DNA of 64,000 nucleotides from positions 205,591 to 269,590 of the forward strand of contig JAFQQQ010000002.1 of the NCBI GenBank assembly GCA_017410525.1. Direction: 5' to 3'. Numbering within the stretch: the first letter of the stretch is position 1; the number at the start of each line of letters is the position of its first letter. Source of the stretch: Bacilli bacterium. Its GTDB lineage: Bacteria > Bacillota_I > Bacilli_A > RF39 > UBA660. Shown piece after piece: positions 39,913 through 63,867 of the stretch. The notes under the pieces are model-generated. The model did no database searches and had not been told where the DNA came from. It saw nothing but the letters and a program-made list of their open reading frames with translations. The position numbers and the translations under genes are program-made.

Positions 39913-39989
<77 letters not shown>

Positions 39990-40003: not shown

Positions 40004-40080
40004 GGCCGGTTGGTGAAGCGGCTTAACACACATGCCTTTCACGCATGCATTCACGGGTCCGAATCCCGTACCGGTCACCA
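40004..40080 (+). tRNA. tRNA-Glu (anticodon UUC)
   Basis: Acceptor GGCCGGT/ACCGGTC, anticodon stem CATGC/GCATG with loop CTTTCAC, T arm ACGGG-TCCGAAT-CCCGT, CCA encoded. Resembles the Bacillus tRNA-Glu sequence, judged from memory. Confidence 0.8.
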
Positions 40081-40091
40081 TATGTTAATTA

Positions 40092-40118
40092 ACCCTTGAT
40101 TTTCAAGGGTTTTTATTT
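40092..40118 (+). terminator. Terminator hairpin AACCCTTGA..TCAAGGGTT + T-run after the tRNA pair
   Basis: Perfect 9-bp stem, 4-nt loop, TTTTTATTTT. Confidence 0.6.
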
Positions 40119-40128
40119 TGTCGTTTGA

Positions 40129-40153
40129 GTTTTGGTCTTGTTTTTGGTCTTGT
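40129..40153 (+). repeat. Tandem direct repeat TTTTGGTCTTGT x2
   Basis: GTTTTGGTCTTGTTTTTGGTCTTGTAA. Related copies recur at 41365-41401. Confidence 0.6.
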
Positions 40154-40253
40154 AACTCGTTTTTTTTTTGAACTTTTTTATTTCCTTTTGTCAATATAAA
40201 ATAAAAAACGAAAAAAACATTGAAAAAAAGATCAAAAATATAGAAGTTTTTAA

Positions 40254-40320
40254 ATGGTGACCGGTAAGAAACCCGGACCCACTTATAGCTATAGTGAATA
40301 CCTGCGTGAGTGTGTGTTAA
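40254..40320 (-). pseudogene. Degenerate inverted copy of tRNA-Glu (3' half), pseudo-tRNA fragment
   Basis: TGGTGACCGGTA...GTGAATACCTGCGTGAGTGTGTGTTAAG matches the reverse complement of the tRNA-Glu 3' end and anticodon-arm region with an about 13-nt insertion. The T-arm cannot fold. Confidence 0.45.
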
Positions 40321-40418
40321 GATTTGATAAAATAAATTGACCTCTCGCTTATTTAAAAAAAGTTGATATTTTTTTCTTTTGTGATATAATATAAGAAATT
40401 TTTGTAGGGGGATAATTT

Positions 40419-40700
40419 ATGAAAGAAATCACGTTTTATAGAACATATAGTTATGGTGGTATGGAAGGTAGAAACAAAGAAGTGAGAAATTTTGAAACAG
40501 TAGAGTTAGCTGTTCAAGATGCTCTTAAAGATACTTGGAATGACCAATTTAAATTATATAAAGTAAAAATGATATTTGATGGAAAAATAACAGAAGAAGA
40601 AAAGTACATAGAACCTTTAGTGTGTGGTAGAGATTTAATTTCTGATAATCCATTGAATAAATTAAATTTAGAATCTTTAACTAAACCAAAAAGAAAATAG
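40419..40700 (+). CDS. Hypothetical 93-aa protein
   Basis: ORF with RBS GGGGGATAA and an upstream extended -10 (TGATATAAT). No recognisable domain. Confidence 0.4.
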   Translation: MKEITFYRTYSYGGMEGRNKEVRNFETVELAVQDALKDTWNDQFKLYKVKMIFDGKITEEEKYIEPLVCGRDLISDNPLNKLNLESLTKPKRK

Positions 40701-40784
40701 TGTTGTATCTTGATTTTTAGATTTTATTTAGTAGTTAACGTTTGTCAAAAAATTTTTAAAAAAACATAAAAAGGAGTTTCTGTA

Positions 40785-41345
40785 ATGAAAGAAAAATTAT
40801 TTAATACAAGTGATGGTATAAAATATAAATTCTCAAGATTTTATATTATTAAAAATAATTATTTATTTAGTACTAGTAATGCTAATTTAGGTCATAATTT
40901 AAAAACTTGTTGTTGTATAAAAAAGTTAGGTTCAAATGTTCGTCCTAAAATTTATTTAGATATAAAAAAGGATAATAAGATAATCATGAAAAACAAACTT
41001 ATAGGTGATTACCAAGCATTAATGGATTTTATAGTGGAACACCAGAATGATTTTATATTTATAAAAGGTTTTAGTAGAGCTAGTATGGCTGAATTTATAG
41101 CAATGCTTAATATCAAAAAGCAGATGAATATTAAACCTGTAAAATTTAAAAATAAAATATTAGAGGCACAATACGAAAGACATTTACTAACAAAAGAACA
41201 ACGCATTGAAGAATTAAATAAAAAATTAGAAAATGGCGCAGAAGTTGATAGTGCTGAGCAATATATGAAAATTACCAATTCAGTATTTGGTATAAATAGA
41301 TATAAGTCTAGACAAAAAATTATACAATTAAGAAAAAATAGTTAG
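40785..41345 (+). CDS. Hypothetical 186-aa protein (basic, coiled-coil C-terminus)
   Basis: RBS AAAGGAG. No recognisable catalytic motif. It is the larger of the two ORFs of the islet. Confidence 0.4.
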   Translation: MKEKLFNTSDGIKYKFSRFYIIKNNYLFSTSNANLGHNLKTCCCIKKLGSNVRPKIYLDIKKDNKIIMKNKLIGDYQALMDFIVEHQNDFIFIKGFSRASMAEFIAMLNIKKQMNIKPVKFKNKILEAQYERHLLTKEQRIEELNKKLENGAEVDSAEQYMKITNSVFGINRYKSRQKIIQLRKNS

Positions 41346-41364
41346 GCTAAATAACTATTTTTTG

Positions 41365-41401
41365 TTTTAGTCTTATTTTGGTCTTGTGGTTTGGTCTTGT
41401 A
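41365..41401 (+). repeat. Tandem direct repeats TTTAGTCTTAT / TTTGGTCTTGT / TTTGGTCTTGT
   Basis: Same 11-mer family as at 40129-40153, in the same orientation, near the other end of the islet. Confidence 0.55.
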
Positions 41402-41541
41402 AATGGTTACTATTTGTTAAAATTATCAAAATAAACAGTAACAAAAAATGATAAAACAGTAACACGAAATCCCTTTGTTTTTAAGGCAATATGGCATTAG
41501 CCCTTTATTTTCAATAATTTTCTAAAAATAGAAGTTCACAT

Positions 41542-41558
41542 TCCCGTACCGGTCACCA
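41542..41558 (+). repeat. Direct repeat of tRNA-Glu 3' end (attR-like)
   Basis: A 17/17 identity to 40064-40080. Confidence 0.6.
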
Positions 41559-41606
41559 TTTATGAATTAGAAACCATTTTATATGGTTTTTTTCTTTATA
41601 TAATTG

Positions 41607-41640
41607 TGAACGCATTGCGTGGTGTGAGTGATTAAGCCTT
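41607..41640 (-). pseudogene. Second inverted tRNA-Glu-like fragment
   Basis: GTGAACGCATTGCGTGGTGTGAGTGATTAAGCC resembles the reverse complement of the tRNA-Glu anticodon/D-arm region (..GTGAATGCATGCGTG..GTGTGTTAAGCC). Confidence 0.35.
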
Positions 41641-41771
41641 ATATGGTTTTGAGTAAGTATTAATACTAAAATAACTGAATGGAATGAACCTGAATAGACC
41701 TCTCGCTTAAATTAATAATTTATGTTATAATTAAATTGTCATATAAATGATAAGTTGTAAGGAGGAAATAC

Positions 41772-42419
41772 ATGAATAATACTATAGTAACATATGAAAC
41801 ATTCCATGGAAGTGCGAAGAAGATAGCTAATATAATTTCTGATAAATTAAATTGCAAATGTATTAATATAGATACACCTTTTGAAGCTGAAGATTTAAAA
41901 GAAATAGATAATATAATATTAGTATTTAACTTTAGAGGGCCATATACTGCTCAATTAACTAAATTATATTTAAATAGAGTTAAAGAACAGTTAAAAAATA
42001 AAAATGTAATTTTAGTAGGTGAAGGATTATTTTCAGAAAAAGAATTCCCTGTAGTAGCAGATGAAATATACAAAAATAACCCATCAAAAACATTTAACAA
42101 ATTTTTTGTTAATGGACAATTAAGAATGGAAACATTATTTCCAGAAGAAAGAGCTCTACTTAAAAAGTTTAGTGAAATAACTGGTATGGAAATAAAAGAT
42201 ATGGGAGAACTTGATTTGAAGAAAGCAGAAGAAGTTGCTAATGAAATTGAAAGATTGATTGAAACGGATGAATTTAAGACTCCAATAGAAAATGAAACAA
42301 ATGAAAATCAAGGAACAAAGTGGGTTTGTCCAGTATGTGGGTATATCCACTATGGAGATAATCCACCAGAAAAATGTCCTTTGTGTGGAGTACCTAAAGA
42401 ACTTTTTAGAAAAGAATAA
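41772..42419 (+). CDS. Flavodoxin-like domain fused to C-terminal rubredoxin-like zinc/iron finger
   Basis: N-terminal flavodoxin-fold pattern (TYETFHGSAKKIA), C-terminal WVCPVCGY...CPLCG (rubredoxin CxxC...CxxC). RBS AAGGAGG. Confidence 0.65.
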   Translation: MNNTIVTYETFHGSAKKIANIISDKLNCKCINIDTPFEAEDLKEIDNIILVFNFRGPYTAQLTKLYLNRVKEQLKNKNVILVGEGLFSEKEFPVVADEIYKNNPSKTFNKFFVNGQLRMETLFPEERALLKKFSEITGMEIKDMGELDLKKAEEVANEIERLIETDEFKTPIENETNENQGTKWVCPVCGYIHYGDNPPEKCPLCGVPKELFRKE

Positions 42420-42712: not shown

Positions 42713-42717
42713 CTTTT

Positions 42718-42791
42718 GGGAAACTTGCTCAATTGGTTAGAGCGCTTGCTTGACGTGCAAGAGATCAAGGGTTCGAGTCCTATGTTTCTCA
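42718..42791 (+). tRNA. tRNA-Val (anticodon GAC), no encoded CCA, weak T-stem
   Basis: Acceptor GGGAAAC/GTTTCTC, D arm GCTC..GAGC, anticodon stem CTTGC/GCAAG with loop TTGACGT, T arm with one mismatch. Confidence 0.55.
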
Positions 42792-42946
42792 CTATTATTT
42801 TTAACCCTTAAACACTTGTTACAAAATATTAGGTATGTTATAATTATTATAGATAAGAAGTAGTTAACATACCACACAATTAATGGTTTAATTAATGAGA
42901 CTTATCTACTACAGTAGTAAGTCTTTTTATTTTAGAGGTGATTAAA

Positions 42947-62865: not shown

Positions 62866-63867
62866 CTATTTCATATTATTTTTCAACCAACTATCTAAAT
62901 TGTCTTTTTTAGTATTACTATATTTACTTTTAGTGTTTATCGTTTCTGAATTTCTAAGAATTTCTTGTCTTTGCTTTTTCGAATCTGGAGTTGCATATAT
63001 CTCTGTTGATGTTATTGAACTATGACCTAGAAATTCTTTAACATATAAAAGCGGAGTTCCATTATTATACAAATGTGTTGCTTTGGTATGTCTAAAACTA
63101 TGAGGATGATAATTTCCATTGAATTTATCTGGATATATTAAATTTAATTTTAAAACTATTTTTTTAATCATTTTATTAATACTATATCTTGAATATTTTT
63201 TCTTATAATTAGAATAAAATAAATAATCATCTCCATAGTTAATATAAAATTCTTTTAAATATTTATTGATTAACTTTACTAATTCTTGACTGATAGGTAC
63301 AATTCTAGTTTTATTACCTTTGCCATATAAAGTAATACTTGCATTATCAGATAAATTTAAGTCATCTAATTTAATATTTATTAATTCAGTTACTCTTGCC
63401 CCTGTTTCATAAAGTACACATATCATCGTTAATTTTTTTAAATCTTTGATACTGTTTAAATAATTTATCATTGTTTTTATTTCATTTTCTGTAAAATATG
63501 ATATCATTTTATTAGGAACCTTTTTATTCTTAATACTAAGAATTTGAGAACAAGATCCAAATAAATCAGGTTCGTTTATTTGGACATACTTGTAAAATGA
63601 TTTTATACAAGCAAGTCTTTGGTTCCTAGTTTGTATTGAAACAGTTCTATCTGTTTCTAACCAATCTAGAAATTGGATTATTACTTCCTTAGTAATTGAT
63701 TCAATTTCTATTTTATTTGGTTTAATATTTTTTTCTTTATTCATAAATTCTAACAACAAATAAAATGTAGTTGAATATGATGATTTAGTGTTCATTGAAT
63801 AATTACATTCACCAATTAAATAACTTGTAAGAAATTCTTGAACTAATTTACTAAATCTATTAGTCAC
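62866..63867 (-). CDS. Tyrosine-type site-specific recombinase/integrase
   Basis: The C-terminal catalytic region is HPHSFRHTKATHLYNNGTPLLYVKEFLGHSSITSTEIY (R..HxxR..Y). GTG start after GAGGGGGTGA. Confidence 0.85.
   Translation of the reverse strand: MTNRFSKLVQEFLTSYLIGECNYSMNTKSSYSTTFYLLLEFMNKEKNIKPNKIEIESITKEVIIQFLDWLETDRTVSIQTRNQRLACIKSFYKYVQINEPDLFGSCSQILSIKNKKVPNKMISYFTENEIKTMINYLNSIKDLKKLTMICVLYETGARVTELINIKLDDLNLSDNASITLYGKGNKTRIVPISQELVKLINKYLKEFYINYGDDYLFYSNYKKKYSRYSINKMIKKIVLKLNLIYPDKFNGNYHPHSFRHTKATHLYNNGTPLLYVKEFLGHSSITSTEIYATPDSKKQRQEILRNSETINTKSKYSNTKKDNLDSWLKNNMK

What the first reader, a model, noticed from the sequence alone, without database searches (positions are those of the whole stretch)
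40004..41558. Integrase-less 1.46-kb islet at the 3' end of tRNA-Glu bounded by a 17-bp direct repeat
Seen in sequence: the last 17 nt of tRNA-Glu (TCCCGTACCGGTCACCA, 40064-80) recur exactly at 41542-58. The 1.46 kb in between carries the tRNA terminator, tandem TTTGGTCTTGT repeats near both ends, an inverted degenerate tRNA-Glu fragment and two small orphan ORFs of 93 and 186 aa. No recombinase is present. Established knowledge: tRNA 3'-end duplications are the signature of site-specific integration, giving attL and attR. Inference: this is either a decayed or miniature integrative element mobilised in trans, or the remnant left after excision or recombination of a larger island. The 186-aa basic protein and the iteron-like repeats could be a minimal replication/regulation module.
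Basis: partly seen in the sequence, partly recalled or inferred. Interest (0 to 1): 0.65.

Follow-up and report, generated by a model that had tools for sequence, protein, structure and literature searches.

The report
Integrase-less mini-element at tRNA-Glu
A 1.48-kb stretch inserted at the end of a tRNA-Glu gene is a tiny mobile element that has no recombinase of its own but keeps a complete phage-style attachment site, so it most likely moves by borrowing the integrase of a temperate phage while carrying two small cargo genes.

Summary
The 18-bp 3' end of tRNA-Glu(UUC) is duplicated exactly (40064-81 and 41542-59) around 1,478 bp that contain no recombinase.

It is a real site-specific insertion. 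Related genomes have the precise empty site with one core copy, including one about 97% identical in the flanks to an occupied relative. Others carry elements with the same ends and different cargo. Two independent metagenome contigs contain the joined right end-core-left end (attP-type) junction.

The TTGGTCTTGT repeats are not iterons. They sit at fixed distances on both sides of the core (-164/-151 and +68/+80) in all five variants. One variant has TTGACCTTGT in both arms. The same tandem repeat, hairpin and spacing flank the integrase gene and attL/attR of 40-53-kb prophages at other tRNAs. It occurs in 13 of the 17 closest integrase loci and in none of the remaining 63 loci of that scan.

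So the islet is a non-autonomous mini-element with a lambda-like attP, probably mobilised in trans by a phage integrase of this clade. No tRNA-Glu(UUC)-specific helper was found.

ORF186 belongs to a small family seen in variable and mobile-element regions. It is not a replication protein by any test.

This is a new variant of a known kind (CIME-like or pseudo-SCC-like). Interest is moderate.

The parts
40004..40080 (+). tRNA-Glu(UUC), the integration target. It is left intact because the element supplies an identical 3' end.
   Evidence: ARAGORN; Rfam tRNA 56.7 bits
40064..40081 (+). attL core: the 18-bp identity segment TCCCGTACCGGTCACCAT
   Evidence: D2; single copy in the empty sites L012 and L208-L217
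40082..41559 (+). The inserted mini-element, 1,478 bp, counting the right-hand core copy as element DNA
   Evidence: Window minus this stretch equals the empty site L012: tRNA-Glu to flavodoxin gap is 213 bp there and 1,692 bp here
40091..40120 (+). Element-supplied hairpin plus T-run (terminator for the tRNA operon), first part of the P' arm
   Evidence: The same hairpin position is seen in L014, L010, L206, L218 and in prophage attL of L155, L150 and L158
40132..40153 (+). P' arm-type repeats, TTGGTCTTGT x2, at +68/+80 from the core start
   Evidence: same repeat and spacing next to the integrase gene of prophages
40254..40351 (-). Inverted degenerate tRNA-Glu copy (40254-40322) and tRNA-Ile fragment (GACCTCTCGCTTA, 40339-40351). 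This is a paralogue of the host attB flank and lies just upstream of the cargo promoter.
   Evidence: (I1, D4)
40363..40390 (+). Sigma-70-type promoter TTGATA-16-TATAAT with TG extension, driving the cargo genes
   Evidence: 11 of 12 matches
40419..40700 (+). Cargo gene ORF93, function unknown. It is found only in this element family.
   Evidence: 95% identical copy in variant L206 with 7 synonymous and 5 non-synonymous codon changes
40785..41345 (+). Cargo gene ORF186. It belongs to a small family found in mobile and variable regions, with an N-terminal alpha/beta domain and a C-terminal basic helical tail.
41330..41366 (+). AT-rich hairpin plus T-run that ends the cargo cassette. It is conserved behind unrelated cargo in other variants.
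   Evidence: I25; alignment A2
41367..41400 (+). P arm-type repeats: degenerate TTAGTCTTAT, then TTGGTCTTGT x2 at -164/-151 from the core
41434..41464 (+). Second P-arm motif AACAGTAACA x2, 21 bp apart, at -108/-87. Candidate binding site for an accessory protein (excisionase or bending protein).
   Evidence: (D9). It changes together with the arm repeat in L206 (AACATTGACA). A related motif is in prophage attR, L174
41542..41559 (+). attR core, the second copy of the 18-bp identity segment
41560..41771 (+). Host attB flank: native tRNA terminator, inverted tRNA-Glu and tRNA-Ile relics, and the promoter of the flavodoxin-rubredoxin gene (41772-42419). Not part of the element.
   Evidence: Identical arrangement in the empty sites L012 and L210

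Best explanation
The islet is a non-autonomous, site-specific integrative mini-element.

Anatomy (shown):
- An 18-bp core identical to the 3' end of tRNA-Glu(UUC).
- On each side of the core, the protein-binding arms of a lambda-type attP. Tandem TTGGTCTTGT arm sites lie at -164/-151 and +68/+80. A second pair of repeats lies at -108/-87. A hairpin sits right after the core and re-terminates the tRNA operon.
- Between the arms, where related prophages carry their integrase gene, it has a self-contained expression cassette: promoter, ORF93, ORF186, terminator.

Mechanism (inferred):
- A heterobivalent tyrosine integrase of the prophage clade that uses TTGGTCTTGT arm sites is supplied in trans by a resident or infecting phage, probably with an excisionase.
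- It recombines attL x attR to release a circle carrying attP, and attP x attB (tRNA-Glu) to insert it.
- Elements can also pile up in tandem at the same site and be fused or exchanged, which swaps cargo.

Shown: site-specific insertion, conserved attP anatomy, cargo exchange, P-core-P' junctions in relatives, and the link between the repeat and the integrase clade.

Inferred: current mobility of this particular copy, the identity of the helper, and the function of the cargo.
For: 1. Exact 18-bp duplication, 0 expected by chance.
2. Precise empty sites with one core copy: L012 and L208-L217. L012 is about 97% identical in both flanks to the occupied L206, so the site is polymorphic at the strain or species level.
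3. Same site and same ends, different cargo. L014 has ORF144 + ORF262. L206 has ORF93 plus an internally deleted ORF186 relic. L010 and L218 have ORF184 + an ORF186 homologue, and L010 also has a HipA-like cassette.
4. Right end-core-left end junctions in two unrelated runs. L010 (SRR27608056) has 29-nt terminal redundancy. L218 (SRR13390172) has the junction internally.
5. Arm motifs sit at identical distances from the core in all five variants. In L206 both arms read TTGACCTTGT and the second motif also differs, which is a coordinated change.
6. The left arm (hairpin + repeat) is 75-84% identical over about 70 nt to sequence next to tRNA genes in IMG/VR prophage contigs.
7. In prophage UViG_3300045988_165428, attL is tRNA-Cys + ATATGTT + hairpin + TTGGTCTTGT x2 at +51/+63 from the tRNA end (here +50/+62) + integrase. 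attR has the repeat at -156/-144 and AACATTGACA at -78 before a 24-bp tRNA-Cys core.
8. 15 repeat-bearing loci encode homologous tyrosine integrases (Pfam).
9. In a scan of integrase relatives, the repeat pair is present in 13 of the 17 closest loci and in none of the remaining 63 loci.
10. The integrases have a conserved N-terminal extension of about 84 aa, ahead of the region that aligns to Tn1549 Int (6emy). That is where arm-binding domains lie.
Against: - No integrase of the clade with tRNA-Glu(UUC) specificity was found. It is not in the window or in any fetched host locus, and not in IMG/VR.
- The only recombinase in the window is a Xer-type enzyme 21 kb away.
- The P-core-P' junctions come from relatives, not from this copy. 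They could be tandem arrays rather than free circles.
- Divergence of the arms between window and L014 (about 88%) equals that of the host backbone. Long vertical residence with occasional loss is therefore not excluded.
- The arm-binding function of the integrase N-terminus and of the repeats rests on analogy, not on a domain hit.
Confidence: 0.78

Rival explanations
1. Immobile scar. The islet is the decayed remnant of a once larger prophage or island. It is now fixed, inherited vertically, and only occasionally lost by recombination between the 18-bp repeats.
For: No integrase in the islet or the window. Arm divergence between sister species is similar to backbone divergence. An ORF186 relic in L206 shows that decay does happen.
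Against: Five cargo variants keep all arm motifs at the same positions, with a coordinated motif change in L206. Cores are exact. P-core-P' junctions occur in two independent samples. There is empty/occupied polymorphism at about 97% flank identity. An unconstrained scar would not keep about 240 bp of attP architecture while exchanging its interior.
Confidence: 0.12
2. Chromosomal cassette platform. A host-encoded recombinase services the tRNA-Glu site like an integron, capturing and shuffling cassettes without any phage helper. The candidates are the Xer-type enzyme at 62866-63867 or another domesticated integrase.
For: A Xer-type tyrosine recombinase is encoded in the window. Cassette-like organisation with own promoter and terminator. 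The hybrid internal junction in L010 suggests cassette fusion.
Against: Xer enzymes lack arm-binding domains and act on dif-like sites. The arm repeat is specifically linked to a prophage integrase clade. No integrase gene is conserved next to the site in any of the host loci.
Confidence: 0.05
3. Small integrative plasmid or episome. The direct repeats are iterons and ORF186 is the initiator, so the element replicates as a circle and integrates occasionally.
For: Tandem direct repeats. A 3.8-kb contig with terminal redundancy. ORF186 is basic, and its model has an alpha/beta core with weak, non-significant resemblance to RNase H-like nucleic-acid enzymes.
Against: L014 has the repeats and no ORF186. 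L206 has only a relic. ORF186 homologues sit in chromosomes without the repeats. No Rep, HUH or primase similarity in Pfam, PHROGs, NCBIfam, PADLOC or PDB. No match to any plasmid or phage record. The same repeats flank prophage att sites.
Confidence: 0.03
4. Not site-specific at all. The locus is a homologous-recombination hot spot between conserved flanks, and the 18-mer is an accidental tRNA fragment.
For: Host flank and element left arm share tRNA-derived sequence. A second variable spot lies at the next tRNA cluster.
Against: The boundaries are exact to the base at an 18-bp repeat in every variant, and the empty site has a single copy. attP-type junctions exist. The architecture matches prophage attL and attR.
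Confidence: 0.02

Closest known systems
CIMEs (cis-mobilizable elements) of streptococci
   Same: Defined as elements that have lost integration and transfer genes but retain attL and attR (PMC5704250). They sit at the 3' end of a target gene, often a tRNA, and occur in tandem with other elements at the same site.
   Different: CIMEs are described as decayed ICEs or IMEs and are moved in cis after accretion with an ICE. Here the arms match a prophage-type attP. The elements are uniformly tiny (0.9-3.8 kb). Their ends are conserved while the cargo is exchanged, which looks like a maintained lifestyle rather than decay.
Pseudo-SCC elements of staphylococci (SCC-like cassettes lacking ccr recombinase genes)
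   Same: Integrase-less cassettes bounded by direct repeats at one chromosomal site. They are arranged in tandem arrays and are presumed to be moved by recombinases of complete elements (own knowledge; literature located but not read in depth).
   Different: Those use large serine recombinases (Ccr) and the rlmH/orfX site, have no arm-type sites, and are much larger.
Bacteriophage lambda attP and heterobivalent tyrosine integrases (lambda, Tn916/Tn1549 Int)
   Same: An attP of about 240 bp with a short core and tandem arm-type repeats on both sides, plus further repeats in the P arm where Xis and bending proteins bind (established knowledge). The candidate helpers are tyrosine integrases with an N-terminal extension before the core-binding domain.
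   Different: No integrase or xis gene is attached to this attP. Binding was not tested. The integrase clade has no cultured representative (best 23-29% identity to any phage record).
Integron cassettes and CALINs (cassette arrays lacking an integrase)
   Same: Small promoter- or terminator-bounded cargo units mobilised in trans by an integrase encoded elsewhere (PMC11389934).
   Different: No attC hairpin sites and no IntI-type integrase. Each unit here carries a full attP and its own promoter, and targets a tRNA gene.
Tycheposons and other tRNA-targeting islands
   Same: Integration at tRNA 3' ends, tandem accumulation at one tRNA, tandem junctions and excised forms detected (10.1101/2020.12.28.424599).
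   Different: Tycheposons encode their own integrase and usually replication genes. Integrase-less pieces there are described as degenerate remnants.
Phage morons
   Same: Cargo with its own promoter and terminator, located next to the att site in the position occupied by the int region in related prophages (own knowledge of the moron concept; anatomy).
   Different: Morons are parts of phage genomes. This unit stands alone in the chromosome with both att arms.

Membership tests
CIME (cis-mobilizable element) | Retains attL and attR bounding the element | tested here: met
   Exact 18-bp cores at 40064 and 41542; single copy in empty sites
CIME (cis-mobilizable element) | Has lost integration and transfer genes | tested here: met
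   ORF93 and ORF186 have no recombinase, relaxase or transfer domain. No hit with integrase queries inside the islet
CIME (cis-mobilizable element) | Derived by decay from an ICE or IME | tested here: inconclusive
   The arms resemble prophage attL and attR, not any ICE or IME seen here. No ICE or IME relative was found, so descent is more likely from a phage-type element
CIME (cis-mobilizable element) | Forms tandems (accretion) with another element at the same att site | tested here: inconclusive
   P-core-P' junctions in relatives L010 and L218 fit a tandem or a circle. Not seen for the window copy
Lambda-type attP served by a heterobivalent tyrosine integrase | Core identical to attB inside a longer attP | tested here: met
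   attB (L012), attL and attR (window) and attP (L010, L218) share TCCCGTACCGGTCACCAT with the expected flank exchange
Lambda-type attP served by a heterobivalent tyrosine integrase | Arm-type repeats, different from the core, on both sides of the core at fixed distances | tested here: met
   -164/-151 and +68/+80 in five variants, with a coordinated change in L206
Lambda-type attP served by a heterobivalent tyrosine integrase | Cognate integrase with catalytic R-H-R-H-Y residues and an N-terminal arm-binding domain | tested here: inconclusive
   The clade was found next to the same repeats. Its catalytic residues are invariant and it has a conserved extension of about 84 aa. No arm-binding Pfam hit, and no tRNA-Glu(UUC)-specific member found
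Lambda-type attP served by a heterobivalent tyrosine integrase | Integrase binds the arm repeats and catalyses attP x attB recombination | not testable with these tools
   Needs EMSA or recombination assays
Integron gene cassette / CALIN | attC recombination site and IntI-type integrase | tested here: not met
   The boundaries are tRNA-derived direct repeats, not attC hairpins. The Xer-type enzyme in the window scores far below the integron-integrase cut-offs
Phage satellite (PICI-like) | Own integrase, replication and packaging or interference genes | tested here: not met
   Only two small genes without such domains
Iteron plasmid replicon | Rep initiator gene linked to its iterons | tested here: not met
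   The repeats occur without ORF186 (L014) and ORF186 occurs without the repeats (L001 and others). No Rep similarity
IMEX (element exploiting XerCD at dif) | dif-like target and attachment site | not tested
   The target is the tRNA-Glu 3' end. No dif model was run. The arm repeats argue for a lambda-type enzyme instead
Toxin-antitoxin module (for ORF186) | Toxin and antitoxin pair with neutralisation | tested here: inconclusive
   The N-domain and the C-terminal helix exist as separate small proteins. One N-domain is fused to a SocA/Panacea antitoxin domain (PMC8832971). No PADLOC, Pfam or fold match for ORF186 itself

The most novel reading that the evidence does not exclude
These are not decay products. 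They are a successful class of 'attP-only' hitchers: miniature cassettes that parasitise the integrases of a temperate-phage clade, much as MITEs parasitise transposases. They exchange promoter-to-terminator cargo units and can integrate beside, or fuse with, the helper prophage. That would give phages and hosts a dedicated route for shuttling moron-like or defence-like genes between chromosome and phage genome.
Probability: 0.3. Interest if true: 0.7.

Novelty: new variant of a known kind. Interest (0 to 1): 0.5.

Why it matters
Integrase-less islands at tRNA genes are usually written off as scars. Here a whole family keeps an intact, positionally conserved attP while swapping cargo. The matching integrase clade sits in uncultured gut prophages. 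If the elements really move on borrowed phage integrase, they are a minimal model for trans-mobilised integrative DNA. They would also be a plausible source of the promoter-terminator 'moron' cassettes found next to phage att sites. In addition, they provide a natural, compact attP/attB pair (about 240 bp and 18 bp) for an uncharacterised integrase family.

Tried and rejected
- Phage and plasmid records: blastn of the islet against both collections found no match.
- Metagenome and IMG/VR scans with TTGGTCTTGTN{2,3}TTGGTCTTGT: mostly unrelated 12-bp tandem repeats. Its by-catch later gave the prophage lead.
- Three further IMG/VR scans gave nothing useful. They used the right-end sequence, the tRNA-Glu core and the second P-arm motif. 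The core scan found only ordinary tRNA arrays.
- L004 integrase as a probe: no relatives in IMG/VR.
- ORF186 function: Foldseek against PDB and BFVD gave no significant hit, only weak RNase H-like entries with E above 0.01 and rmsd around 15 A. The PDB profile search gave nothing.
- ORF93: the single-sequence AlphaFold model was too poor to use, pLDDT 48.
- ORF186 as the element's own recombinase: rejected. It is absent or decayed in variants with intact ends, and it occurs elsewhere without such ends.
- The Xer-type gene at 62866-63867 as helper: considered unlikely, because there is no arm-binding region and no link to the repeats.
Full report
**1. The observation**

The window comes from a low-GC (about 26%) uncultured Bacillota genome labelled 'Bacilli bacterium'. 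Sporulation genes lie nearby.

- ARAGORN and Rfam place tRNA-Ile at 39913-39989 and tRNA-Glu(UUC) at 40004-40080.
- The exact repeat is 18 bp, TCCCGTACCGGTCACCAT.
- TTGGTCTTGT occurs exactly four times in 64 kb, all inside the islet: two tandem copies near each end, all in the same orientation.
- ORF93 and ORF186 are present. Neither has a recombinase, replication or transfer domain.

The description is correct.

**2. It is a site-specific insertion**

I scanned one genome per species with the downstream flavodoxin-rubredoxin gene (ORF215) and recovered syntenic loci.

| Locus | State | Content |
|---|---|---|
| L012 | empty | tRNA-Glu runs straight into the sequence that follows the second repeat in the window; one core copy; gap to ORF215 is 213 bp (1,692 bp here) |
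| L208-L217 (ten contigs of another sister species) | empty | one core copy each |
| L014 | occupied, 1.7 kb | same left and right ends, unrelated cargo ORF144 + ORF262 |
| L206, L207 | occupied, 0.94 kb | ORF93 (95% identical) and an internally deleted ORF186 relic |

L206 and the empty L012 are about 97% identical in both flanks. The site is therefore polymorphic at about species level. The window itself is 88-91% identical to these relatives in the flanks.

**3. Joined ends exist**

- Logan contig L010 (SRR27608056, 3,831 bp) begins and ends with the same 29 nt. It contains right end-core-left end as one continuous sequence.
- L218, from an unrelated run (SRR13390172), has the same P-core-P' junction with cargo on both sides.
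- The core (18 bp) is shorter than the assembler's k-mer, so these junctions must exist physically, as circles or as tandem arrays.
- L010 encodes no integrase either. It carries an ORF184 + ORF186-homologue cassette and a HipA_C-like kinase that matches the PADLOC candidate defence family PDC-M03A.
- An internal hybrid junction in L010 and L011 joins a right-type repeat directly to left-type sequence. That is the expected product of a deletion between the repeats of two tandem elements.

**4. The repeats are attachment-site arms, not iterons**

- In all five variants the tandem decamers start at -164/-151 and +68/+80 from the core.
- A second motif (AACAGTAACA x2, 21 bp apart) starts at -108/-87.
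- In L206 every copy in both arms reads TTGACCTTGT and the second motif reads AACATTGACA. This is a coordinated change.
- The overall span, about -165 to +90, and the layout are those of a lambda-type attP (established knowledge).
- The repeats occur without ORF186 (L014), and ORF186 homologues occur without the repeats. This removes the replication-module idea.

**5. The matching integrase clade**

Most loci from the repeat scans were irrelevant. A blastn of the left arm against them showed about 70 nt of similarity (hairpin, T-run, repeat) in several IMG/VR contigs.

The clearest case is the 53-kb prophage contig UViG_3300045988_165428.
- Its attL is tRNA-Cys, ATATGTT, a hairpin, TTGGTCTTGT x2 at +51/+63 from the tRNA end (mini-element: +50/+62), then a 429-aa tyrosine integrase on the opposite strand. 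The C-terminal KQDQKQDQ tail of that integrase is encoded by the repeat itself.
- Its attR has the repeat at -156/-144, AACATTGACA at -78 and a 24-bp tRNA-Cys core.

The clade more widely:
- Fifteen repeat-bearing loci encode homologous integrases (Pfam).
- Their targets include tRNA-Pro and tRNA-Glu(CTC). Repeat-bearing contigs without a called integrase sit next to a tmRNA gene (L040) and a tRNA-Arg gene (L073).
- A profile scan of IMG/VR returned 80 integrase loci. The repeat pair lies at the 3' end of the gene in 13 of the 17 closest and in none of the other 63.
- The integrases share invariant catalytic residues and a conserved N-terminal extension of about 84 aa, ahead of the part that aligns with Tn1549 Int. 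An arm-binding domain is expected there.
- No cultured phage has a close relative.
- L063 is a further integrase-less repeat-cargo-repeat unit at a non-tRNA site.

**6. What is missing**

No clade member with the tRNA-Glu(UUC) core was found in the window, in any host locus or in IMG/VR. The only recombinase in the window is a Xer-type enzyme at 62866-63867, below all equivalog cut-offs. Trans-mobilisation by a phage integrase is therefore an inference from anatomy and association.

**7. Cargo**

- ORF93 has only three homologues, all in this element family.
- ORF186 belongs to a small family: 32 close homologues and 61 representatives among 1.84 billion proteins.
- The family is found in variable regions:
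  - a 9.9-kb integrase element at tRNA-Ser (L004);
  - next to CBASS and restriction-modification genes (L201);
  - next to an AAA ATPase (L005);
  - beside LOG-like and radical-SAM genes.
- Its N-domain and its C-terminal helix occur as separate proteins. One N-domain is fused to a SocA/Panacea antitoxin domain (PMC8832971).
- The AlphaFold model (pLDDT 78) has a beta-beta-beta-alpha-beta-alpha-beta-alpha core. No fold match is significant. A toxin-antitoxin-like or defence-related role is a lead only.

**8. An oddity**

The host flank downstream of attB is an inverted, degenerate copy of the tRNA-Glu/tRNA-Ile pair and serves as the ORF215 promoter region. The element's left arm carries a paralogue of it upstream of its own promoter. 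Either an ancestor captured host flank by aberrant excision, or ORF215 is itself an old fixed cassette.

**9. Comparison and verdict**

The element meets the definition of a CIME: attL and attR retained, integration and transfer genes lost (PMC5704250). Its arms, however, are phage-type. It also resembles pseudo-SCC cassettes and CALINs in depending on a recombinase encoded elsewhere (PMC11389934).

The new points are the miniature size, the fully conserved attP with exchanged cargo, and the link to a prophage integrase clade.

Verdict: a real, probably still mobilisable, non-autonomous integrative element, and a new variant of a known kind. Interest is moderate.

Noticed in passing
window 62866-63867 (-): Xer-type tyrosine recombinase (Phage_integrase 7e-39 plus SAM_1). 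It hits XerA, XerC and XerD models but falls below every curated cut-off. It is the only recombinase in the window.
   Followed up: partly
window 41606-41709: The host intergenic region is an inverted degenerate copy of the neighbouring tRNA-Glu/tRNA-Ile pair and now forms the promoter region of the flavodoxin-rubredoxin fusion gene (41772-42419). It is also present in empty sites.
   Followed up: partly
L012 6943-7799 vs window 42714-42796: In the sister genome a 246-aa ORF of unknown function replaces tRNA-Val(gac) after tRNA-Thr. No obvious direct repeats.
   Followed up: no
L208 11405-13465; L206 4331-4945: Extra genes lie downstream of the tRNA-Gln/Leu/Thr cluster and are absent from the window: 147 aa, a bPH_2-domain protein of 204 aa, and 165 aa. 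This is a second variable spot next to tRNAs.
   Followed up: no
L004 1794-11794: A 9.9-kb integrative element at tRNA-Ser, bounded by a 64-bp repeat (94% identical). It has an integrase, two HTH_17 genes and an ORF186 homologue followed by a conserved 240-aa partner, which is also seen in L192-L199.
   Followed up: partly
L201 24-8938 (same sample as the window contig, ERZ28019288): Defence island with CBASS (SAVED + SMODS/DncV-like), a Tsp45I-type restriction-modification pair, TnpV and NikA-like genes, and a 120-aa paralogue of the ORF186 N-domain.
   Followed up: no
L063 1-1472 (-); L044 1-1029 (-): Further integrase-less units carrying the hairpin and the TTGGTCTTGT pair. L063 has repeat-cargo-repeat at a non-tRNA site. 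L044 has the left arm next to tRNA-Glu(CTC), followed by a non-integrase ORF.
   Followed up: partly
L155 266-299 and relatives: In the prophage integrases the arm-type repeat lies inside the coding sequence and encodes the C-terminal tail KQDQKQDQ. Protein end and binding site therefore overlap.
   Followed up: partly
P0180 (293 aa): Fusion of an ORF186-like N-domain with a SocA/Panacea antitoxin domain (Pfam 3.4e-14).
   Followed up: partly
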